The notes under the pieces were generated by a model. The model was not told the origin of the DNA. It did no database searches and worked only from the letters and a program-made list of their open reading frames with translations. Positions 27,051 through 39,574 of a stretch of 58,866 bases of DNA are shown in pieces (the stretch's first letter is position 1; every line of letters begins with the position of its first letter). The stretch covers positions 1 to 58,866 of the IMG/VR virus record IMGVR_UViG_3300037423_000489; one strand, 5' to 3'. This DNA is from a virus (taxonomy: Duplodnaviria > Caudoviricetes). Position numbers and translations under genes: made by a program.

Positions 27051-27127
27051 GGGCGGTTAGCTCAGTTGGTTAGAGTGCTGCATTCACATTGCAGAGGTCG
27101 CAGATTCGAATTCTGCACCGCCCACCA
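27051..27127 (+). tRNA. tRNA-Val(CAC)
   Basis: Full cloverleaf: GGGCGGT/ACCGCCC acceptor, CTGCA-TTCACAT-TGCAG anticodon arm, GCAGA-TTCGAAT-TCTGC T arm, encoded CCA. Confidence 0.93.
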
Positions 27128-28069
27128 TCATTTACCAAACGCCTTCTGCAACGCCTTCCTTTGTTGCTCGACTTCAATGTGCGCATAGCGCTCTGTCATC
27201 TTTGGCGTGCTATGTCCTAAAATCTTCCTGATCACTTCCAGTGGCACGCCTGATTTAATTAACAGCGATGCTGTGCTGTGACGGAGATCATGAAAGTTCA
27301 CGTGCTCCATGCCTGCCGATTTTCTGGCGCGCTGGAATCCTGATTTCAAGCCTTCCGCCGTGATTGGAAGCGGCAAGTAATTCAACCAAGGCCGCAGCTG
27401 CTTTGTGATTGGCACTGTGCGCCGCCTCAATGTTTTTGTGTTGCCTGACAAAATGGTGATTTCATCATCGCCAATTTCGGCTTCATTCAATTTCAGGATT
27501 TCGCCGCGCCGCATGCCGGTGTAGACGGCAATCCAGATAGCGGCGCGCACATTCATGCTTGCTCTATCAGCAATTTTCTTTACCTGTTCAATAGACAGAT
27601 ACACTTCACGATGGTTGTTCTCGGGCAGGCGCTTTACACGCTCACCATAATTTATGGAGATGATTTCTCGATCAAATGCAAGCGACAATCCTTTTTTGAT
27701 TGTGCCAAGTGTTCTGTTAATTGTGGCAGGCTTCAATCCCTCTTTGAGTAAACCGTCAATCATTAGCACAGCGCATTTCTTGAACTCGCTGGCACGATAA
27801 CCAACTATCCATTTTTTTGATCTGATGGCATGTAATTCTGCGCTCTCAGGGCTGCGCAAATTCTTTGCATGCTCCATATACAAGTCCATTATCTCAATCA
27901 ATGTTGGATCTGCCGAATATTTACGTGCTTTCAGTGATTGGATTATTTCGGCCTTGATAGTTTCTGCTTCTGTCTTTGTTCCGCCCTTTGGCAAGCGTCG
28001 ATGAACGCGCTGCCGGTCGATGCATACGTTGACATGCCAGTATCCCTCTTTGTCTTTAGTGATAGACAT
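27128..28069 (-). CDS. int: Tyrosine integrase
   Basis: YTGMRRGE, K, FHDLRH, LGH, YAH catalytic residues. Confidence 0.95.
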   Translation of the reverse strand: MSITKDKEGYWHVNVCIDRQRVHRRLPKGGTKTEAETIKAEIIQSLKARKYSADPTLIEIMDLYMEHAKNLRSPESAELHAIRSKKWIVGYRASEFKKCAVLMIDGLLKEGLKPATINRTLGTIKKGLSLAFDREIISINYGERVKRLPENNHREVYLSIEQVKKIADRASMNVRAAIWIAVYTGMRRGEILKLNEAEIGDDEITILSGNTKTLRRRTVPITKQLRPWLNYLPLPITAEGLKSGFQRARKSAGMEHVNFHDLRHSTASLLIKSGVPLEVIRKILGHSTPKMTERYAHIEVEQQRKALQKAFGK

Positions 28070-31970: not shown

Positions 31971-32245
31971 GATTTAGCCTTATATATGTGCTCAATACCG
32001 CCAGTCTCGGCAGCAACTTCAGTCCGCGTCAGATAGCCTTTATCGAATAGCTTCTTCAGCCTTGCTGATGCGGATTGAATCGATACGCCAAACACAGCAG
32101 CAACCTGTGGACTACCTGCACCATGCGTTTCAAGTGCAATCCAGCGAAACAAATCAAGCTGTGGTTGGCTCAACATAACAGCCTCAAACGCTTCGCAGTC
32201 GTTCAGGAATTCACGTTGAAGACGTGATAGCCGGTCTTTGCTCAT
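31967..32245 (-). CDS. Winged-HTH protein
   Basis: QVAAVFGVSIQSASARLKKLFDKGYL. Confidence 0.7.
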   Translation of the reverse strand: MSKDRLSRLQREFLNDCEAFEAVMLSQPQLDLFRWIALETHGAGSPQVAAVFGVSIQSASARLKKLFDKGYLTRTEVAAETGGIEHIYKAKS

Positions 32246-32649
32246 GATTGTTTATCTCCCTGCATTGCGATGGCGGCATCGATAGGTTCGAAATTTCTCA
32301 ACACGTTTTTCGTCATGCTATGCGGGTCTGAAAAGCATGTTACGCATGCTCCATTTGGAAAATCTTCCGCATAGTTATGCTTGCAACCACCGCACGATTT
32401 ACGTTGATTCGTTTCCGCATCCTTCTTGTCCTCTGCCTGTTCTGAATGTCCAACGGACGACTGGGCTGAGAGACAGTCACGAACAAACGCGATAACGTCA
32501 TCGTTGTATAAAAACGTTTCTCTTCCATCGAAATCAAAGCCAAGATGCTGCGATGCTTTATCTAAAATCATTTGATCCGTCATCGCATCAGATGCCTGCA
32601 CTTCAGGCTCCTTGTGCGTTGCGGTGTTGATTGTGATGGTCTTTAGCAT
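32242..32649 (-). CDS. Hypothetical protein
   Basis: AAGGA RBS, ATGA overlap; CxxC pairs, IDAAIA end. Confidence 0.6.
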   Translation of the reverse strand: MLKTITINTATHKEPEVQASDAMTDQMILDKASQHLGFDFDGRETFLYNDDVIAFVRDCLSAQSSVGHSEQAEDKKDAETNQRKSCGGCKHNYAEDFPNGACVTCFSDPHSMTKNVLRNFEPIDAAIAMQGDKQS

Positions 32650-32666
32650 TTTTGTTCCTTTAAACT

Positions 32667-32790
32667 TGGTGCTGCCGACTGGAGTCGAACCAGTACATTT
32701 AGTGCACTAAATATGAGATGTTTAACGGTGCTACCGTTACCCATTGCTCACCTCTCATTATGGAGCGCTCTACCATTAAGCTACAGCAGC
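32667..32790 (-). ncRNA. tRNA-like RNA (124 nt) with expanded anticodon region
   Basis: Acceptor GCTGCTG/CGGCAGC+ACCA, D arm TAGCTTAATGGTAGAGC, T arm ACTGG-TTCGACT-CCAGT; ~65-nt hairpin-rich insert in between. Confidence 0.8.
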
Positions 32791-32797
32791 GAAACTC

Positions 32798-33049
32798 TTA
32801 CTCGACTTGCGCCGCAGCCATCGAAGCTGCGAGAACGCGAAGCCAACAGGTCAACGATATTCCGTGGAATTTCTTATCGATAGCACCACGTTGCGCTGCT
32901 TCCTCTTCGCCACGTGCCCATCGTTGTAATGCATATTCAATCACCATTTTTGTTTCTGGTTCTATATATCCGCATGCTTCGAGTTCGCGCATACCTGCTG
33001 ATATGTCAAGTTGATCAACATTAAATCCGGGCACAAGTCCTATTCTCAT
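32798..33049 (-). CDS. Hypothetical protein
   Basis: GGAG RBS before MRIGLVPG; operon context. Confidence 0.6.
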   Translation of the reverse strand: MRIGLVPGFNVDQLDISAGMRELEACGYIEPETKMVIEYALQRWARGEEEAAQRGAIDKKFHGISLTCWLRVLAASMAAAQVE

Positions 33050-33071
33050 TTTGTTTCTCCGGTTGGCGGCG

Positions 33072-33464
33072 TCAGAACTTAGGACACCAGTTGTTATTAA
33101 GATGCATACGCAAGCCAATCAAATCGAAATCTGCCTCTTTGCAAAACGGGCAGATGGCGCTTTGTGCAGCACGCCAGATAGCAACAATATCGTTTGCCTC
33201 GGTGTGCATTGTGTGACCACTCAAAAGGTCGTCTGCAACCATTGGATTGGTGTGAGGCATAGCTGCCACAGCTAGGCGAATAATTTGCTTATCGCTCGCG
33301 TCATGCTGGCTGCTTGCTGGCTCTTCCTTGGATGTGGAGAGAAGTTCAATTGCATTTTGCAACTTGATCGCGTTGAACGTCGCCCCGTTAGTGCCGACTG
33401 GAATTGTCCGCTCGATCCAGTCGCGCACTTCTTCCAACGCCTGTCTAACTTTATCGTTGATCAT
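33072..33464 (-). CDS. Hypothetical protein with C-terminal Zn finger
   Basis: CPFC..DFDLIGL..HL..WC. Confidence 0.6.
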   Translation of the reverse strand: MINDKVRQALEEVRDWIERTIPVGTNGATFNAIKLQNAIELLSTSKEEPASSQHDASDKQIIRLAVAAMPHTNPMVADDLLSGHTMHTEANDIVAIWRAAQSAICPFCKEADFDLIGLRMHLNNNWCPKF

Positions 33465-33467
33465 GAT

Positions 33468-33596
33468 TTACTCAATCTCCGCTTGTTTTCTGCATTTCGA
33501 GCATTCAAGCCAACTGTCATAATTCACATAGCTGCCTTGCAGCTTTAAATCATGCCCGCCTGTCAATTGGCACCATATTCTTTTAAGTAATCTCAT
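33468..33596 (-). CDS. Small Cys/His protein (42 aa)
   Basis: Hand translation MRLLKRIWCQLTGGH..ECSKC; ATGA overlap with upstream stop. Confidence 0.55.
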   Translation of the reverse strand: MRLLKRIWCQLTGGHDLKLQGSYVNYDSWLECSKCRKQAEIE

Positions 33597-34063
33597 ACTT
33601 CACCTTTATTCTTTTCGATTGCTTGCAATGCGTATAAATCAATAGCGGGACAGCCAGCATCGCGCCATTTCTGTAACTGCTCATCTGTCATTTGGAAAGA
33701 TGGCACGTTGCCCAATGAATGCTCTCGGAGCGTTGCAACCAGCACAGGCAACGGCGGCAATTCAACAGGCTCTTGCGCCATCTTCTCGGCTTCGGCATTA
33801 CTATTTTCTGCATTTGATAATTTATTCAGAAATGCTTTTACATCTTCTTGGCTTGCATTACCTTCCGCTCTTGCTGCATCTGCCATAGCCAACCATCTTC
33901 TATCTTCAAGATACAATTCATCGACTTTATTTTTTGCTTCCTCGATGGCTTGATAAACTTTGGTTCCATACCAAAGATTTTGATCAGATATAACCTCGCT
34001 ATCATGAATAGCAAATATTGTCCTGATGATTTCGATCAGAACTTGTTCGCGTGGGGTGTTCAT
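33593..34063 (-). CDS. Hypothetical protein
   Basis: Overlap-coupled ORF in early operon. Confidence 0.6.
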   Translation of the reverse strand: MNTPREQVLIEIIRTIFAIHDSEVISDQNLWYGTKVYQAIEEAKNKVDELYLEDRRWLAMADAARAEGNASQEDVKAFLNKLSNAENSNAEAEKMAQEPVELPPLPVLVATLREHSLGNVPSFQMTDEQLQKWRDAGCPAIDLYALQAIEKNKGEV

Positions 34064-34617
34064 GATTTCTCTGTCTCCGCTCCGTGTGCCTCAAGCCATG
34101 TGTCAAGACGTTTCCTTGCATAGGGCGCAAGCGGCTTGTCACGCTCATATAAAGACACATGCGTGTAATCTACGCCGGCCTCTCTTGCGACATCGGTTTG
34201 TGTCATTCCGAAGGCTGTCCGCAACGCGAATAGTGTTTTCACGCTTCCAAAATCGGCATGCTCGTTTTTCATGTGCTCACGAAGGTTTGCGAAGCTACGA
34301 TTGCAGCATGGGCACACGCCATTCATTACGCGTTCGCGCATCTTCTTGTGAGCGCGTGTAATGTTATTGCGCTCGGTTTCTGCCTTTTCAGCTCTCAACT
34401 CGGCGGAATGGAGCATCTCTTCTTTCCTGTCGAGTTCTTCTCTAAGTTTTTGCGCCTCAGTCGGCCCGCTATATGCTTGACTATGGCCATTCGGGCAGTA
34501 AAAAGTCTCCCTGTCTTTTATGCGGCGTTCTCTATAGTCATTTGCTAATGCATATTGAACTCCGCAATTGGAGCAATTAATCACATGAAACCAAGTGTTT
34601 TCTGCAAAAGAGGCCAT
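34060..34617 (-). CDS. Zn-finger plus XRE HTH protein
   Basis: CSNC, FYCPNGH, CPCC..H..H, then LRTAFGMTQTDVAREAGV..SLYE. Confidence 0.75.
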   Translation of the reverse strand: MASFAENTWFHVINCSNCGVQYALANDYRERRIKDRETFYCPNGHSQAYSGPTEAQKLREELDRKEEMLHSAELRAEKAETERNNITRAHKKMRERVMNGVCPCCNRSFANLREHMKNEHADFGSVKTLFALRTAFGMTQTDVAREAGVDYTHVSLYERDKPLAPYARKRLDTWLEAHGAETEKS

Positions 34618-34953
34618 CACTTCCCTCCACCCAATAAATAAACAACACAATAAGCACCACGCACTAGACCAGTAATTTCCTCAACCGGACAGCCTCGCTC
34701 CTCATACCACCGCATCACGGCATAAGAGTTCGTTGTCGCCGGACCGGCTTTATTCGGTAGCTTGATTCGCCAGGTGCGGAGTGGGTCGGTCATGCTGGCA
34801 CCTTGTAAATAGTTGATCCCGTATGCCGAAACATAGCGTTATAAGAATTGAGTGATTCTGTGCGGTCATATCCACCGAACTCGTGCTGGCGCAAGCGCTG
34901 CAAGTAGCGGCTGCGTGCATACTTTCCTGCTGAGATATGGTTTGGCCAGATGA

Positions 34954-35253
34954 TCAGCATTTTGTAACCTTGATTTCTGATTCACATTGCTGACACTCTT
35001 TAATCGAAGGAATTCCATGTGAGCAATTGCGCAGTTCAAAAGCATCTTCTGCGGACATTCCGCGCTTCAGACGCTTGCCAATTGTCTGCGGAGTGAAACC
35101 ATACGTGCGGCACCATTCAGAAAGCGTCTTGGTTGCCCCGTTTAACGTAATCAGGTTATTGCGGCGCGTATTGCTGTTTTGCTCGACTGATGTCGCCCAA
35201 TAACAATTGCTCGGCTCGTAGTTGCCGTTGGTATCGCGTCGTTCAATGCTCAT
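34954..35253 (-). pseudogene. C-terminal half of an HNH homing endonuclease
   Basis: Begins abruptly at SIERRDTNGNYEPSNCYWAT..EQ..N, an internal HNH motif. Confidence 0.6.
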
Positions 35254-35531
35254 AGCGTCACTTCCGGAACTGTGATGAATTCACTTTTCGCGATAGCAGC
35301 GGCGCTGATCTTTGCGCGCAGATCGCTAGCCAGAGCAGGGTATTCATCAGCACAGGAATCGGCATACGTCGCAAGCGCAGCAATCGCATGTTTGTCCGTG
35401 GTGAGATTGAGCACAAAATATTCATCATGCTCATGCTTGCCGCCTGTTTGATCTTTTCCATCGGTGCGGCTGACATTGAATTTGTGGTAAAGGCCGATGC
35501 TCTTTTGATCGATTTCAGTTATTGCATTCAT
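35250..35531 (-). CDS. Hypothetical protein, probably C-terminally truncated
   Basis: GLYHKFNVSRTDG..YFVL..DKHA..YA domain; ends FITVPEVTL. Confidence 0.6.
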   Translation of the reverse strand: MNAITEIDQKSIGLYHKFNVSRTDGKDQTGGKHEHDEYFVLNLTTDKHAIAALATYADSCADEYPALASDLRAKISAAAIAKSEFITVPEVTL

Positions 35532-35564
35532 TTTTACTCCTTTGTTGTACATACACAGTTAAAT

Positions 35565-35642
35565 TGGTGGGGCTACTTCCGTTTCACTACTTCGCTTACG
35601 CCAGGGAGGAAAGCGGACTTTTCGCTAGTTTGTTTTCGCCCC
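35565..35642 (-). ncRNA. 78-nt structured RNA closing GGGGC/GCCCC + ACCA
   Basis: Terminal stem flanked by GAA/AGTA (loop-E-like), inner CGCTT/AAGCG stem; intergenic after ssb. Confidence 0.55.
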
Positions 35643-35651
35643 GGTGATTTT

Positions 35652-36134
35652 TTAAAACGGAATATCGTCGTCCATATCCGAAAAGTTCGGCGCAGGTTTG
35701 GATGCAGCCGGACGCGATGCACCACCGCCTGTATTTTGGCGCGCTGGCGGCGCACTGCCGTAATCATCATCCATCGATGCGCTGCCGCCGCCCATGCCTT
35801 GACGGCTGCCGAGCATTTGCATCGTGTCGGCGATGATCTCGGTCGTGTAGCGCTCGACGCCATCCTTGTCGGTCCATTTGCGCGTTTGCAAACGACCTTC
35901 GACATACACTTGCGAACCCTTCTTCAGATATTGCCCGGCGATTTCCGCCAGCTTGCGATAGAAGGTGATGCGATGCCATTCGGTCAGCTCTTTCTTTTCG
36001 CCGCTCGCCTTGTCTTTCCAGCTCTCCGTCGTCGCGACCGCAATATTGGTCACTGCCTCACCGTTCGGCATGTAACGTGTTTCCGGATCGCGCCCCAAAT
36101 TGCCGACGATGATGACTTTGTTTATGCTTGCCAT
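35652..36134 (-). CDS. ssb: Single-stranded DNA-binding protein
   Basis: [37 protein letters not shown] tail. Confidence 0.97.
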
Positions 36135-36142
36135 GATTTTTC

Positions 36143-36784
36143 CTATACCGTATGTTCAAGTTGAATTTTTTCCACCAAGTGTTCCAGGTACTGATTTGCC
36201 GCCTCTACCTTGAACTTGATTTTGTCCTCCAGTGATTTGTCTCGAACAAATGGAGCAATTGTGATGCGAAGCGTTTCTTCAATGTGATCAACGTAGTGCA
36301 GCTCTTCCTGTTCAAACTTGATTAATTCATCTGGGGTATTCACCATGCAGAACGCAACATCAAAATAATCAACGTCCCAAAGCATCATGTATGCACGGCC
36401 TTGCCAGTCGTAACCGCGTTCCTTGCATGCTGCGAGAGCCGATGCTGTGGTTGCCGGGAACGTTGCGAGTGACCAAGGCGCCTTGATGTCGATAATCTTT
36501 GTGCCTGTGAAGATGTCACATTCACCAGTCACCCAGTCGTTCTCTTTTCGCTCCTTGTTCTTCTTGTGATTGGTAAAAAACACGGAGTTGTATAGAGCTA
36601 TCGCCTCATCTTCAACAATGATCCCCTTGTCCATTTCCTTGCCTGAGATGACCTGATTGAAGCTATATACATATTCCTTCGCCATCTTTTCAAGAAACGT
36701 TTTTGCCCCAACGGAAAGAACCTCGGATTTCTCTTTTGGCTCTGTCATAATCTGACTCAAAGACGATGCGCGAATGCGGATCAT
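36143..36784 (-). CDS. YqaJ/lambda-Exo-like nuclease
   Basis: IRASS, TGECD, IIDIK, YDWQ..YM PD-(D/E)xK motifs. Confidence 0.8.
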
Positions 36785-37266
36785 GCTGTCTCCCTCAATG
36801 CTTCAGTTAGTTTTCGTTCCTGCTCATCGGTCAACGCAAAACCATCGCGTAGCTTTTCAGCGGTGTATCCCCCGTTTTTGACTGCTTGCAATGCCTTATT
36901 GAAGCGCGCTTCTGCGATGACAGGCTTTTGTTGTGTTGGAATCGCTGGTCTAATACGGATGCACTCAACAATTTCGCCCCCCATCTTCGTAGTGCTGGCA
37001 AACAAAGTAATTTGCTTTCCGCGCCAGTCTTCGATATACGGCCCATAGAGTTTGTGAATTGTTTTTGAATTGGTGACATTCAAAATTAGCGGCTTCGCGT
37101 TGACTAAATGTGCGACAGTACATTCATCTTCTTTTCCGCCAGGACCTTTTACTTTTTCAAGTCGCACAAAATCAATCGTCACGGTAATGTCATTCCCATC
37201 AGGTAGTGCATATGCGCCAATGTAGTCAGGGTTTACCAGTTGCTTCCAATGTGTCTTGTTGCTCAT
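36781..37266 (-). CDS. Putative recombination / ssDNA-binding protein
   Basis: THWK..PDYIGAY, KPLILNVTN, IEDW.GK.ITL; adjacent to exonuclease and ssb. Confidence 0.6.
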   Translation of the reverse strand: MSNKTHWKQLVNPDYIGAYALPDGNDITVTIDFVRLEKVKGPGGKEDECTVAHLVNAKPLILNVTNSKTIHKLYGPYIEDWRGKQITLFASTTKMGGEIVECIRIRPAIPTQQKPVIAEARFNKALQAVKNGGYTAEKLRDGFALTDEQERKLTEALRETA

Positions 37267-37314
37267 GTCATACCTTTCTGGCGGAGTTTCTAGCCGCCGT
37301 TGGTTTTAATGCGA

Positions 37315-37536
37315 TTACCGCAAAGCTGATCTGCGAGACCTAATCAACGCCGCCTGCATTTGGTAATGCGCAGCGTTATGACTGGATTCCTTCGCCTTCT
37401 TGTCCTCAGTCTCTGCGCACATCGTGTAGTGCTCTTCCCACTTGAGCAGATACCAGCGCTTTATTGGCTTGGTGATGAGGTCGAGCTGCAGTGCGAGAAG
37501 TTCTTTCAGGCTCATGGTCTTTAAGTTGTTCATCAA
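37315..37536 (-). CDS. Hypothetical protein
   Basis: ORF in early operon orientation. Confidence 0.45.
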   Translation of the reverse strand: MMNNLKTMSLKELLALQLDLITKPIKRWYLLKWEEHYTMCAETEDKKAKESSHNAAHYQMQAALIRSRRSALR

Positions 37537-37811
37537 AACACCGTGTGGATGAGGATGTCACCGAGAATGAAAACAGTCCAAATTGCGAGGACAGTCCCTG
37601 TGACTTTTTCTGTCGAGCTCATAGCGCGATTACCGTGACAGCGCACACGCCGAAAAGATCGATCGCATCTGCAGCAATGTCCAAGCTGCTGCGACCGATG
37701 GTCGCGTATTGAAAGTGTTCGGTTTCAGTTTTGACTTTTACGAGATACTTACTCATGGAATCTCCCTGTTTTATGCGCGGTCACAGCTGACGCCGTGACC
37801 TGTGACCCGTG

Positions 37812-38705
37812 TCAAGAGACCTTCTTGGTGCTGCGGAAGCCGACGTAGCCGTACCCGAGGTGCGGCCAGCCGAAGTTGAGATTGAACACGCCGGCACAGT
37901 CGCCCGAGTCCCAGTAGCCGCCGCGGATGAGCGCAAGGCCGGACCAATCACGAGCACCATCCGGACGCCAACCACCGCCTTGTTGTTGAGTGAATTGAGA
38001 ACCAACTGTGAGATAGGGAGAATCAGCAGAAATTTTCCCGGCCTGACTATCCGCATTGCCTGGAAGGTCGTTTAACATCCAACTGAATAAATGGCCGGAA
38101 AAATCATAGATGCGATCGCCAGTGGATAAAACATGCCAGCGGCGCTCCAAGGAATTGTGCGGCACGTAATCATTTCTCTGCGAGCCTGATACAGAACCTT
38201 TATGCAGTCCGCGATAGATATGACCTTTGCCGACTTTGCCGCCGGTCCAGTTCTCATCCTGATTGGCGATGTCCCATGCAAGTGCAAGATGCTGGCTGCC
38301 GCAAATAAGATCGCCGCCATCCGCTTGGCATGCCTTGCGCGAATCGTAGAAATTGATTTTGACGCGCGGCGTTTCCGCTTCAGAAACGTATGCCTTGCCA
38401 TCGGCATTGACGCAGTTCATATATTGCGCGACTTGGAATGCGGGAACGACGATGCCGTTCGGGAGCGTTGTGGTAGGGAAGTTCAAATAACCTGACGAAG
38501 CAACCGGTGCAAGCAGTTGCTCAATCACCGAAGGCGTGCCATCGACGATCAAACCGATCTCACGCATGACGATCAGATAGACTCCTGTCTCAGGATGAAC
38601 GAGCTTTGTCAGTCCATTCCACTCGCTTTCGATTTCCAATCCATGCAAAGTGATGCCTGGAAGTTTTGCACTCAGAATGCGCTTTTCGGTTAATTCGATA
38701 TACAT
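37812..38705 (-). CDS. C-type-lectin-fold (FGE/Mtd-like) protein with DGR-type variable C-terminus
   Basis: IYDFSGHLFSW and terminal ALIRGGYW..AGVFNL..VGFRS motifs. Confidence 0.75.
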   Translation of the reverse strand: MYIELTEKRILSAKLPGITLHGLEIESEWNGLTKLVHPETGVYLIVMREIGLIVDGTPSVIEQLLAPVASSGYLNFPTTTLPNGIVVPAFQVAQYMNCVNADGKAYVSEAETPRVKINFYDSRKACQADGGDLICGSQHLALAWDIANQDENWTGGKVGKGHIYRGLHKGSVSGSQRNDYVPHNSLERRWHVLSTGDRIYDFSGHLFSWMLNDLPGNADSQAGKISADSPYLTVGSQFTQQQGGGWRPDGARDWSGLALIRGGYWDSGDCAGVFNLNFGWPHLGYGYVGFRSTKKVS

Positions 38706-38724
38706 TTCTTCCCCTGTTTAAAAT

Positions 38725-38990
38725 TGGTTGTCGATGCATGCCTCCCATGAGGCAGGGTTCTAACTTGAGGGTTCCAACCACGCGGCCAAGGCGCGGCGCA
38801 TGCACCAACACAGAAGCGCCCTGACACGTCACGAACAGTCAGACCCCTACGGCCAGTGGACGGCTCCGGAACCGCTCCCCACCTCCGTTGCGCACTACGC
38901 CGATTTCGCCGCGCTTCTGTGTTGGTCCAGACTTCCTACTGCTTCGGGCACTGGATTCCCGACCGGCTTTTAACCATTTCTGGAGCATGT
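38725..38990 (-). ncRNA. Highly structured intergenic RNA region
   Basis: 13-bp closing stem TGTTGGTGCATGC/GCATGCATCGACA+ACCA (38725-38810); perfect 16-bp inverted repeat 38804-38819/38911-38926; several inner hairpins. Confidence 0.6.
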
Positions 38991-39007
38991 CCGGCATGCT
39001 TTGCTGC

Positions 39008-39370
39008 TTACTTCCTGACGGCGACATCAATCACTTCGTATGAAGTGTTTTGTACAAGAGGATTTTTAAATATGGATTGGCAGTACTTGACTGCGACTGT
39101 CCCACCTTGAAAAACTGCGTCGTCAATTTTCTTGGCCACATCGCTACGCAAAACAGAGAAGCGCCAGATGTTAGTAACAGCAACGCCATTTTTTGATGAG
39201 TGCGCTTTGACCCCATCCATTACCATTTCGCCTTCCCACGATTTATTGAGCAATCCCTTTTGCGAGAACTTCTGAATGGTTCCAACACGGACGCCTTCTG
39301 AATAGCATTCGGCTTGTGCCAGTGCTGGCAATGCAAAAACAATGGCTAATGCGAACAAACGTTTTTTCAT
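39008..39370 (-). CDS. Secreted protein with signal peptide
   Basis: MKKRLFALAIVFALPALAQA signal; YSEG.R.G..QKFS.KG..KSWEGE. Confidence 0.75.
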   Translation of the reverse strand: MKKRLFALAIVFALPALAQAECYSEGVRVGTIQKFSQKGLLNKSWEGEMVMDGVKAHSSKNGVAVTNIWRFSVLRSDVAKKIDDAVFQGGTVAVKYCQSIFKNPLVQNTSYEVIDVAVRK

Positions 39371-39388
39371 CTCACTTCCCCGGTTGAA

Positions 39389-39574
39389 TTACGATTGATT
39401 ACCTTGTGCTTGCGCGCACTTATGGCAACGGCGGCTCTTTACTTTCGATGGCTTCATTGCAAATTCACCCAATCCAAGTGGGCGCACAATCGTGTGTCCG
39501 CATTCAAGCGTTTCAAGCATGGTTTCAGGACGATCTACGATTCGACGCAGTGGTGCAGGTGTATGTACGCTCAT
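39389..39574 (-). CDS. Small Zn-binding protein
   Basis: GGAG RBS; LECGH..RRCHKC. Confidence 0.6.
   Translation of the reverse strand: MSVHTPAPLRRIVDRPETMLETLECGHTIVRPLGLGEFAMKPSKVKSRRCHKCAQAQGNQS

What the first reader, a model, noticed from the sequence alone, without database searches (positions are those of the whole stretch)
32667..38990. A set of ACCA-ended structured RNAs spaced through the early leftward operon
Seen: three minus-strand intergenic segments (32667-32790, 35565-35642, 38725-38810), unrelated in sequence, each fold into a closing stem followed directly by ACCA and then a short TTTAA tract before the next gene's RBS (ACCAAGTTTAAAGG, ACCAATTTAACTG, ACCAATTTTAAACAGGG). A weaker fourth candidate is CCAGA/TCTGG+ACCA at 38923-38983. 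Known: RNase P and tRNA 3' enzymes recognise stem+NCCA ends, and P1 C4 and P4 CI RNAs are cut out of phage transcripts by RNase P. Inference: the phage uses tRNA-maturation signals to punctuate its early mRNA and release several stable small RNAs, possibly regulators or decoys for tRNA-targeting defences.
Basis: partly seen in the sequence, partly recalled or inferred. Interest (0 to 1): 0.82.

Follow-up and report, generated by a model that had tools for sequence, protein, structure and literature searches.

The report
tRNA-like gene and shared intergenic motif
One of the three intergenic elements in this soil phage's early operon is a tRNA-derived gene with no usable anticodon arm, and all three sites share a short motif that looks like a host tRNA-end cutting signal, but no data show that RNAs are released there.

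Summary
The sequence features are real, but the three elements are not equivalent.

- **E1 (32667-32790, minus strand)** is a tRNA-type gene (Rfam 44.2 bits). Its acceptor, D and T arms are intact and CCA is encoded. Its last 29 nt match tRNA-Arg(TCT) genes of Burkholderiales-type bacteria. A 72-nt structured segment replaces the anticodon arm, and no single excision restores a canonical one.
- **E3 (38725-38810)** has the best ACCA-adjacent stem in the window (13 bp). It is the second half of a 300-nt composite spacer, and its stem overlaps a 19-nt helix. A related spacer in another phage has the same layout, with that helix enclosing a true tRNA-Tyr. There the E3-like stem is not followed by CCA.
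- **E2 (35565-35642)** is weak: a 5-bp stem and a fold no better than shuffles.
- **The fourth "ACCA"** is the start of a helix arm, not an end.
- **The motif ACCAA(N)TTTAA** occurs three times against 0.24 expected, only at these sites. It puts an RNase E-type site 1-2 nt after CCA, as in E. coli tRNA precursors.

There are no RNA data, and no relatives carry E1-E3. Processing punctuation is plausible but unproven. This is a new variant of a known kind.

The parts
32667..32790 (-). E1: tRNA-like gene of 124 nt with encoded CCA. Acceptor 32790-32784 / 32677-32671, D arm 32781-32767, non-canonical middle 32766-32695, T arm 32694-32678, discriminator A 32670, CCA 32669-32667.
   Evidence: Rfam RF00005 scores 44.2 bits against a cut-off of 29, with 65 nt in place of 15 model positions. 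ARAGORN finds it only with introns allowed and reports a mismatched anticodon stem. The cloverleaf-constrained fold is -40.0 against an MFE of -40.1 kcal/mol. No single excision gives a canonical anticodon arm.
32666..32694 (-). 29 nt (T arm, acceptor 3' strand, ACCA and one more A) identical to bacterial tRNA-Arg(TCT) genes.
   Evidence: A 22-nt exact scan gave 17 genome contigs (Alcaligenaceae, Burkholderiaceae, Methylopumilus). All 17 are called tRNA-Arg(tct). The identity extends to 29 nt in 16 of them and 28 nt in 1.
32660..32670 (-). Motif copy 1: ACCAAGTTTAA, followed by the RBS and start codon of the 135-aa gene (32242-32649).
35565..35642 (-). E2: spacer between the SSB gene and the 100-aa gene. 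5-bp closing stem (35642-35638 / 35573-35569), then ACCA.
   Evidence: Fold -21.0 kcal/mol, z -0.99, with 28 of 200 shuffles as good. A 5-bp stem is found at 201 of 447 ACCA sites. No Rfam hit.
35559..35568 (-). Motif copy 2: ACCAATTTAA, 30 nt before the start of the 100-aa gene (35250-35552).
38725..38810 (-). E3: helix S2 (38810-38798 / 38741-38729, 13 bp including 2 G-T) enclosing two hairpins, then ACCA.
   Evidence: Against L052, 9 aligned pairs: 4 the same, 2 changed on one side, 3 changed on both sides, 0 broken.
38718..38728 (-). Motif copy 3: ACCAATTTTAA, followed by the RBS and start codon of the 297-aa FGE-like gene (37812-38705).
38801..38929 (-). Helix S1: arms 38929-38911 and 38819-38801 (19 nt, 95% complementary) around a 91-nt multi-hairpin core. 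Its 3' arm overlaps the 5' arm of S2.
   Evidence: the repeat finder I1 and I2. S1 forms in the MFE of the whole spacer. Against L052, 16 aligned pairs: 10 the same, 1 one-sided, 4 both-sided, 1 unpaired. In L052 this helix encloses a true tRNA-Tyr.
38923..38987 (-). Its 'ACCA' (38926-38923) is the start of the S1 5' arm.
   Evidence: Its loop aligns with the hairpin upstream of the tRNA in L052.
38706..39007 (-). The whole 300-nt untranslated spacer that holds the fourth candidate, S1 and S2/E3.
   Evidence: ORF list. Fold -111.1 kcal/mol, z -0.12.

Best explanation
The operon holds one tRNA-derived gene and three copies of one short signal, not three or four equivalent ACCA-ended RNAs.

**E1.** It descends from a tRNA-Arg(UCU)-type tRNA. 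It keeps the acceptor stem, D arm, T arm and encoded CCA, but a 72-nt structured segment stands where the anticodon arm should be, so it cannot decode. Inferred: like any tRNA embedded in a transcript, it is cut out by RNase P at its 5' end. RNase E then cuts in AG|TTT just after the CCA, exonucleases trim the rest, and a stable tRNA-shaped RNA remains.

**E3.** It is half of a composite spacer with two mutually exclusive helices, S1 and S2. A related phage keeps the same layout, with S1 extending the acceptor stem of a real tRNA-Tyr.

**E2.** It is probably just a spacer that carries the motif.

**The motif.** ACCAA(N)TTTAA is most likely a single-stranded cleavage or entry site copied from the tRNA-end context: CCA, then an RN|WUU site 1-2 nt later. 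It sits at the 5' edge of the next cistron. The early transcript would be cut at three places. Release of a stable RNA is likely for E1, possible for E3 and doubtful for E2.
For: - E1 is tRNA-like: Rfam 44.2 bits. All 16 stem pairs of the acceptor, D and T arms are paired and the T loop is GTTCGA-type.
- E1's last 29 nt are identical to tRNA-Arg(TCT) genes in 16 of 17 genome hits.
- E1's 5' acceptor strand differs from those genes at two positions and still pairs 7 of 7.
- No canonical anticodon arm can be obtained by any single excision.
- Motif: 3 sites against 0.24 expected. AC precedes 3 of 3 sense-strand intergenic sites and 0 of 4 other CAA[N]TTTAA sites.
- The motif fits the RNase E consensus RN|WUU (PMC5222698, passages).
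- It also fits the E. coli model in which RNase E cuts 1-3 nt after each encoded CCA and RNase P makes the 5' end (PMC2190699, abstract).
- S1 and S2 are both kept between the window and L052 through changes on both sides: 4 of 16 pairs for S1 and 3 of 9 for S2.
- In both phages the two helices overlap.
- No promoter- or terminator-like site on the minus strand coincides with the elements.
Against: - No RNA data exist for this phage.
- No relative carrying E1, E2 or E3 was found, so there is no covariation test for E1 or E2.
- The motif was defined after seeing the three sites.
- The one homologous S2-type stem (L052) is followed by TTCAATTTA, so CCA is not conserved there.
- E2 folds no better than shuffles.
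- The whole spacer folds no better than shuffles (z -0.12), and its MFE lacks the E3 stem.
- RN|WUU is a loose pattern, expected about once per 64 positions by my arithmetic.
- An AT-rich tract just upstream of an RBS could equally be a translation enhancer.
- The host, and whether it has RNase E, is inferred only from tRNA and SSB similarity to Betaproteobacteria. The four candidate genomes tested are not the host: the phage tRNA-Val is only 73-80% identical to their tRNAs.
Confidence: 0.42

Rival explanations
1. All three (or four) elements are tRNA-end mimics cut by RNase P and 3' tRNA enzymes. They are released as stable small RNAs that act as regulators or as decoys for tRNA-targeting defences.
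For: - Helix plus ACCA at all three sites. E3's 13-bp stem is the longest next to any of the 447 ACCA sites.
- AC is part of the motif at 3 of 3 sites.
- RNase P cuts non-tRNA substrates that resemble pre-tRNAs, including the C4 antisense RNA of P1 and P7 (PMC2190699, passage).
- RNase P cleavage of a pseudoknot substrate depends on a 3' RCCA motif (PMC12710915, abstract in the search listing).
- Other phages carry tRNA-shaped genes with large inserts.
Against: - E2 has a 5-bp stem and z -0.99.
- The E3 stem is out-competed by S1 in the full spacer.
- CCA is absent after the homologous stem in L052.
- The fourth ACCA lies inside a helix arm.
- No Rfam family other than tRNA matches at E <= 10.
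- There is no evidence for any target or decoy role.
Confidence: 0.15
2. Relics at the DNA level, with no dedicated RNA function. E1 is a decaying phage tRNA-Arg gene or an old attachment-site fragment disrupted by an insertion. The shared motif is a junction or linker sequence between exchangeable gene modules, or simply an AT-rich translation-initiation context.
For: - The 3' 29 nt of E1 equal a bacterial tRNA-Arg(TCT) 3' end.
- Another viral contig (L283) carries the 3' 45 nt of the same tRNA about 200 nt downstream of an integrase gene, a classic int-attP layout.
- The genes after E2 and E3 look like accessory or broken cassettes. The 100-aa gene is only the N-terminal domain of a protein that is fused to the FGE-like domain in other phages, and an HNH-like gene follows it.
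- Similar AT-rich linkers (CAATTTA-type) follow structured elements in L052 and L081-type loci.
Against: - All 16 stem pairs of E1's three retained arms are intact, and its 5' acceptor strand differs from the bacterial gene yet still pairs, which random decay does not predict.
- E1 lies about 4.6 kb from the only integrase gene (27128-28069), which abuts a complete tRNA-Val.
- Enrichment of the motif with the AC prefix needs some cause.
- S1 and S2 show compensatory changes.
Confidence: 0.25
3. E1 is a working tRNA with a non-canonical intron that is removed to give a decoding tRNA.
For:
- 'Enigmatic introns' in phage tRNAs were reported for Lak megaphages (bioRxiv 10.1101/356790, passages).
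Against: - The ARAGORN anticodon stem has a C-C mismatch and the intron sits at 31/32.
- No single excision yields 5 paired stem positions with T33 and a purine at 37.
- Known bacterial tRNA introns are group I and far longer (recalled, not tested).
Confidence: 0.03
4. Only E1 is real. E2, E3 and the shared motif are coincidences of AT-rich ribosome-binding regions.
For: - E2 is not distinguishable from shuffles.
- The motif was chosen post hoc.
- CAA[N]TTTAA alone is not enriched: 21 of 200 shuffles reach the observed 7.
Against: - Three matches against 0.24 expected, with 0 of 100 shuffles reaching 3.
- All three are on the sense strand, in the three longest spacers of the operon.
- E3's helices are conserved with compensatory changes.
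Confidence: 0.12

Closest known systems
Phage-encoded tRNA genes embedded in operons, processed by RNase P and RNase E (E. coli model, PMC2190699)
   Same: E1 has acceptor, D and T arms and an encoded CCA. An RN|WUU site lies 2 nt after the CCA. It is co-oriented inside an operon.
   Different: E1 has no canonical anticodon arm, is 124 nt long, and cannot decode. E2 and E3 are not tRNAs.
C4 antisense RNA of P1/P7 and CI RNA of P4: phage regulators cut from transcripts by RNase P (C4: PMC2190699 passage; P4 CI: recalled)
   Same: The idea of a stable non-tRNA phage RNA released from a longer transcript through a tRNA-like helix plus CCA.
   Different: No Rfam match to any such family at E <= 10. 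No antisense target was identified, and cleavage is untested.
tRNA-like domains with the anticodon arm replaced (tmRNA tRNA-like domain, YrlA, engineered 'tRNA scaffold' RNAs; all recalled)
   Same: The top half and elbow of a tRNA are kept while the anticodon arm is replaced by another RNA domain.
   Different: No homology was shown, and E1's insert has no known family. In YrlA the RNA ends lie at the other side of the molecule (recalled).
'Enigmatic introns' in phage tRNAs (Lak megaphages, bioRxiv 10.1101/356790, passages read)
   Same: Oversized tRNA genes in phage genomes with inserted sequence of unknown meaning.
   Different: Those genes were resolved into a tRNA plus an intron with an assigned anticodon. 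E1 cannot be resolved this way. This phage is a 59-kb temperate-type phage.
tRNA 3'-end fragments at phage attachment sites (attP)
   Same: Exact identity of E1's 3' 29 nt to a bacterial tRNA-Arg(TCT). L283 shows that this tRNA end is used next to an integrase.
   Different: E1 also has a matching 5' acceptor strand and a D arm. It is not next to the integrase, which abuts a tRNA-Val.
RNase III intercistronic hairpins of T7 and lambda early transcripts (recalled)
   Same: Long helices (S1: 19 nt) between early genes could punctuate the mRNA.
   Different: S1 encloses a 91-nt multi-hairpin core (a tRNA in L052) and overlaps a second helix. RNase III cleavage is untested.

Membership tests
tRNA (Rfam RF00005), for E1 | Score above the curated cut-off | tested here: met
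   44.2 bits against 29
tRNA (Rfam RF00005), for E1 | 7-bp acceptor stem, D arm with GG loop, T arm with GTTCGA-type loop, discriminator plus CCA | tested here: met
   Acceptor 7 of 7, D stem 4 of 4 and T stem 5 of 5 pairs
tRNA (Rfam RF00005), for E1 | Anticodon arm: 5-bp stem and 7-nt loop with T33 and a purine at 37, directly or after removing one intron | tested here: not met
   0 solutions over all single excisions. ARAGORN's best arm has a C-C mismatch.
tRNA (Rfam RF00005), for E1 | Aminoacylation and decoding | not testable with these tools
   Needs biochemistry
tRNA (Rfam RF00005), for E2, E3 and the S1 core | Any tRNA model match | tested here: not met
   No hit at E <= 10 in 32300-39400. 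ARAGORN at relaxed thresholds finds only E1. Their 3' ends match no tRNA in 4 candidate host genomes.
RNase P non-tRNA substrates (C4-type) | Helix ending directly before a 3' RCCA | tested here: inconclusive
   Present in isolation at E1 (7 bp), E3 (13 bp) and E2 (5 bp). E3's helix is displaced by S1 in the full spacer, and 5-bp stems are common.
RNase P non-tRNA substrates (C4-type) | Sequence or structure match to a described family (C4 and others in Rfam) | tested here: not met
   No such hit at E <= 10
RNase P non-tRNA substrates (C4-type) | Cleavage by RNase P | not testable with these tools
   Needs an in vitro or in vivo assay
RNase E site after a tRNA CCA | RN|WUU core 1-3 nt downstream of CCA in a single-stranded AT-rich stretch | tested here: met
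   The sequence at all three sites fits, read against PMC5222698 and PMC2190699. Those bases are left unpaired in the folds.
RNase E site after a tRNA CCA | Actual cleavage, and a host with RNase E | not testable with these tools
   Host unknown and no RNA data
attP core (tRNA 3' fragment) | Exact identity to the 3' part of a bacterial tRNA gene | tested here: met
   29 nt in 16 of 17 genome hits
attP core (tRNA 3' fragment) | Adjacent to the integrase gene | tested here: not met
   The integrase gene is 27128-28069, next to tRNA-Val at 27051-27127. E1 is about 4.6 kb away.

The most novel reading that the evidence does not exclude
Phages use the top half of a host tRNA as a chassis for unrelated RNA domains. 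E1 would be a tRNA-Arg(UCU) acceptor, T arm and elbow carrying a foreign 72-nt domain. Phages would also reuse the host's tRNA-end signal (helix, NCCA, RNase E site) as a general device to cut structured RNAs out of early mRNA. The released tRNA-shaped RNAs would serve as decoys or sponges for enzymes that recognise the tRNA elbow or acceptor, such as tRNA-targeting defence nucleases, integrases or modification enzymes. The switch between helices S1 and S2 around an embedded tRNA would time this release.
Probability: 0.15. Interest if true: 0.8.

Novelty: new variant of a known kind. Interest (0 to 1): 0.5.

Why it matters
If E1 is made and stable, it is a natural tRNA chassis carrying a foreign RNA domain, in an ordinary temperate-type phage. 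Similar oversized tRNA-shaped genes occur in at least 13 other viral contigs, so this could be a neglected class of phage RNAs.

The shared motif would be a simple, testable example of a phage borrowing host tRNA-end processing to punctuate an operon. The conserved pair of mutually exclusive helices around an embedded tRNA or tRNA-like core (this window and L052) suggests regulated release.

None of this is shown by RNA data. At present the finding is a well-defined hypothesis with one solid element (E1).

Tried and rejected
**Searches for relatives that found nothing usable**
- blastn of 32300-39400 against 50,697 phage records hit only the SSB gene: 420 records, none covering more than 5% of the query.
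- The 213-aa exonuclease-like neighbour gave 51 viral loci, none with E1-E3. blastn-short gave 5 hits of 13-18 nt with E 0.29-0.70. ARAGORN with introns found one tRNA-like gene, in L012.
- The 135-aa and 560-aa neighbours gave no viral relatives.
- The 297-aa gene gave 9 viral loci, of which only L052 is full length at 67%. It gave none in genome contigs. It gave 11 metagenome loci at 51% identity or less, all lacking the N-terminal part.
- An E1 pattern found nothing in metagenome contigs.
- G001, the phage that holds L052, shares only a handful of genes with the window.

**Sequencing runs**
- No RNA holder is listed.
- Three soil-metagenome DNA runs hold the stretch with 0 differences outside the SSB gene, so they give no variation to analyse.

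**Ideas set aside**
- Promoter or terminator at the elements: nothing on the minus strand.
- E1's insert as a repeated mobile element: no other copy in the window.
- E2 and E3 ends as tRNA fragments: no tRNA match in 4 candidate genomes.
- The motif as a conserved 5' UTR of the 100-aa gene family: present in 1 lineage (L057, L136) of 10 distinct upstream sequences printed.
- E1 and the L127 tRNA-like gene as one family: alignment z of 3.4 is driven by the acceptor and T arm, so this is inconclusive.
- The abundant lambdoid pL-proximal RNA family as HK022 put RNA: no similarity to the HK022 pL region, only two 14-15-nt matches. The put paper was read in passages only.

**Literature**
- Word searches and sequence-string searches found no description of these elements.
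- Supplementary files of papers were not consulted. The Lak phage Table S6 (tRNA introns) and the put alignments may bear on the comparisons.

Full report
**Setting**

The window is a complete-looking 58,866-bp virus record with a lambda-like layout.
- Structural genes lie on the plus strand up to about 25 kb.
- A tyrosine integrase gene (27128-28069, Pfam PF00589) abuts a complete tRNA-Val (27051-27127).
- A long minus-strand operon (about 43 to 28 kb) holds an exonuclease-like gene, an SSB gene and small genes. A plus-strand operon starts at about 44 kb.
- In the minus-strand operon most genes abut or overlap.
- Three soil-metagenome DNA runs hold the stretch without differences, and no RNA run is listed.

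**Observation**

Each of the three spacers ends in a helix followed directly by ACCA, then A, an optional base, and TTTAA.
- The pattern ACCAAN{0,1}TTTAA has three matches in the window, which are these three. 0.24 are expected and 0 of 100 shuffles reach three. The pattern was defined from the sites, so the figure is generous.
- The shorter CAA[N]TTTAA occurs seven times (4.0 +/- 1.9 in shuffles). Only the three sense-strand intergenic copies carry the AC prefix.
- 722 kb of related loci hold four copies of the full motif, none in a comparable place.
- A stem next to ACCA is not special in itself. Of 447 ACCA sites, 201 have an adjoining stem of 5 bp or more, 44 have 7 bp or more, and only E3 has 11 bp or more.
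- Fold z-scores are modest: E1 -1.99, E2 -0.99, E3 -2.01, fourth candidate -2.33.

**E1 is a tRNA-derived gene**

- Rfam's tRNA model scores 44.2 bits at 32670-32790 (cut-off 29). Model positions for the acceptor, D and T arms align perfectly, but 65 nt stand in place of 15 model positions.
- Default ARAGORN misses it. With introns allowed it calls tRNA-Asn(att) with a 45-nt intron at position 31/32 and a mismatched anticodon stem.
- I enumerated every single-segment excision of the 72-nt middle. None gives five paired stem positions with T33 and a purine at 37.
- A fold constrained to the cloverleaf arms costs nothing (-40.0 against -40.1 kcal/mol). The middle forms hairpins of its own: -19.0 kcal/mol, z -2.2 against mononucleotide shuffles.
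- A 22-nt scan with E1's T arm and acceptor strand found 17 bacterial contigs (Alcaligenaceae, Burkholderiaceae, Methylopumilus). All 17 matches lie in tRNA-Arg(tct) genes. The identity runs for 29 nt (T stem to CCA plus one A) in 16 of them and 28 nt in one.
- E1's 5' half is different. Its acceptor strand differs at two positions yet still pairs 7 of 7. Its D arm is closest to a tRNA-Gly(TCC) in four of those genomes, at 18 of 20 nt.
- So the top half and elbow of a tRNA are fully intact while the decoding arm is gone.
- The insert is not repeated elsewhere in the window.
- A relic attachment site is a serious rival. Viral contig L283 carries the 3' 45 nt of the same tRNA-Arg about 200 nt after an integrase gene.
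- However, E1 has a matching 5' half and lies about 4.6 kb from the only integrase gene, which sits beside the tRNA-Val.

**E3 and the fourth candidate belong to one composite spacer**

- The repeat finder shows two overlapping helices in the 300-nt spacer. S1 has arms 38929-38911 and 38819-38801 (19 nt, 95% complementary, 91 nt between them). They share 38801-38810, so they exclude each other.
- In the fold of the whole spacer S1 forms and the E3 stem does not, and the overall z is -0.12.
- The fourth candidate's ACCA is the start of the S1 5' arm.
- The one full-length relative of the downstream 297-aa gene (L052, 67% identity, in an otherwise mostly unrelated 57.8-kb phage) has the same layout. 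A 16-nt helix (2807-2822 / 2895-2910) overlaps a 9-nt helix (2904-2912 / 2968-2976).
- There the first helix extends the acceptor stem of a genuine tRNA-Tyr(GTA), which scores 57.4 bits in Rfam.
- Anchored on the shared CCAACA / TGTTGG core, S1 keeps pairing through 4 both-sided and 1 one-sided change in 16 columns, with one terminal pair open in the window. S2 keeps pairing through 3 both-sided and 2 one-sided changes in 9 columns, with none broken.
- With only two sequences this is suggestive, not proof.
- L012 has a third version: a 17-nt perfect helix around a tRNA-Leu-like gene with a large insert.
- After the S2-type stem L052 reads TTCAATTTA, not NCCA. The AT-rich tract before the RBS is shared, but the CCA is not.
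- The 91-nt core inside the window's S1 is not recognisable as a tRNA.

**E2 is weak**

- It has a 5-bp closing stem and a fold no better than shuffles (28 of 200 as good), with no Rfam hit and no homologue.
- The gene after it encodes only the N-terminal domain of a protein that other phages fuse to the FGE-like domain. An HNH-like gene follows it. The same motif upstream of homologous genes appears in only one other lineage.

**Mechanism (inferred)**

- The RNase E consensus is RN|WUU (PMC5222698, passages).
- In the E. coli model RNase E cuts 1-3 nt after each encoded CCA, RNase P makes the 5' end, and exonucleases finish the 3' end (PMC2190699, abstract).
- All three motif copies place such a site 1-2 nt after CCA: AG|TTT, AA|TTT and AA|TTT.
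- For E1 this is simply the expected fate of a tRNA-shaped unit in an mRNA.
- For E2 and E3 the same short signal may direct cutting just upstream of the next RBS.
- RNase P does accept tRNA-like non-tRNA substrates such as the C4 RNA precursor (PMC2190699, passage).
- Alternatives are an AT-rich translation enhancer or a module-junction sequence.

**What is known and what is new**

- Phage tRNAs, their processing, RNase P-processed phage regulators, tRNA fragments at attP, and oversized phage tRNAs with 'enigmatic introns' are all known. The last is from the Lak phage preprint, read in passages.
- New here:
  - a tRNA-Arg-derived, non-decoding tRNA-shaped gene in a small temperate-type phage;
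  - a phage-specific motif that copies the tRNA-end context at two further junctions;
  - a conserved pair of exclusive helices around an embedded tRNA or tRNA-like core.
- A pattern scan for a consensus D arm and T loop separated by 50-80 nt found 13 more viral stretches.
  - 8 of the 11 sources given to Rfam score as tRNA over 114-120 nt.
  - Of the 11 distinct sequences, 6 have no canonical anticodon solution and 1 encodes CCA.
- Oversized tRNA-shaped genes are therefore not rare in phages.
- My searches found no description of these elements. Supplements were not available.

**Verdict**

- E1 is solid as a tRNA-like gene. The motif is statistically real within this phage. E3 is real but was read out of context. 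E2 and the fourth candidate do not stand on their own.
- Function rests on inference, and there are no RNA data.

Noticed in passing
L078-L133 (e.g. L126:2121-2144, L082:5141-5164); absent from the window: The 18-mer CAGCCGGAGAGACGGCGC, usually preceded by GTGA, occurs in 56 viral stretches. It looks like a small hairpin with a GAGAGA loop, and variant copies keep the pairing (for example CAGCCGGGAGAGACCGGCA in L104 and L111). It is often followed directly by a tRNA, a tRNA-like gene or a stem-closed cassette, and it is sometimes repeated on both sides of one (L109, L127, L132). It has no Rfam match and no hit in a sequence-string literature search.
   Followed up: partly
Its conserved ends are GGTGAATGCGCAGGCTGATGCGC ... 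GCCGGAGATCAGCACCGGCCACC, closed by a 7-9-bp stem, with a variable middle of about 40-130 nt. TGCTCTTTCCGTTGT often precedes it; the resemblance to boxA is recalled, not tested. In mEp460 it lies just downstream of the repressor gene at the start of the leftward operon. It is present in 135 phage records (Escherichia, Klebsiella, Stx2 phages). It is not in Rfam and not similar to the HK022 pL/put region..
   Followed up: partly
L240:3948-4080: One member of that lambdoid family carries a tRNA D arm and T arm in its variable middle. The Rfam tRNA hit is partial: 34.2 bits, model positions 5-66.
   Followed up: no
L065-L077 (e.g. L068:825-940, L070:27-144, L067:3180-3293): Thirteen viral stretches hold oversized (114-120 nt) tRNA-shaped genes with 65-71 nt between the D and T arms. 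They fall into several unrelated insert families. Two of the families share AGTAGGGAG in the insert.
   Followed up: partly
window 35250-35552 and 34954-35253 (minus strand); 37812-38705: The 100-aa gene matches only the N-terminal part of phrog_9572 (sulfatase-modifying-factor-like). The 297-aa gene matches the C-terminal part. In L056, L057, L059 and L060 both parts are one protein. In the window the N-domain gene is followed by an HNH-endonuclease-like 99-aa gene. This looks like a truncated duplicate or a gene split by a homing-type insertion.
   Followed up: partly
window 27051-28069: A complete tRNA-Val(CAC) with encoded CCA directly abuts the start-distal end of the integrase gene on the opposite strand, and is probably the attachment-site region. 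It is only 73-80% identical to tRNAs of four Burkholderiales-type genomes.
   Followed up: partly
L283:382-1721: An integrase gene is followed about 200 nt later by the 3' 45 nt of the same tRNA-Arg(TCT) whose 3' end E1 carries. This is a classic int-attP pair in another viral contig.
   Followed up: yes
window 37779-37807 (minus strand): An 8-bp hairpin (GGTCACAG ... CTGTGACC, 13-nt loop) sits in the 55-nt spacer between the 297-aa gene and the next small gene. It has no ACCA motif.
   Followed up: no
L081:3060-3720, L094, L110, L117: These are long non-coding regions of more than 600 nt. They string together the GAGAGA-loop hairpin, stem-closed cassettes, two copies of the lambdoid-type element and true tRNAs, joined by AT-rich linkers such as AACAATTTAAC and ACCAATTCA that resemble the window's motif.
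   Followed up: partly
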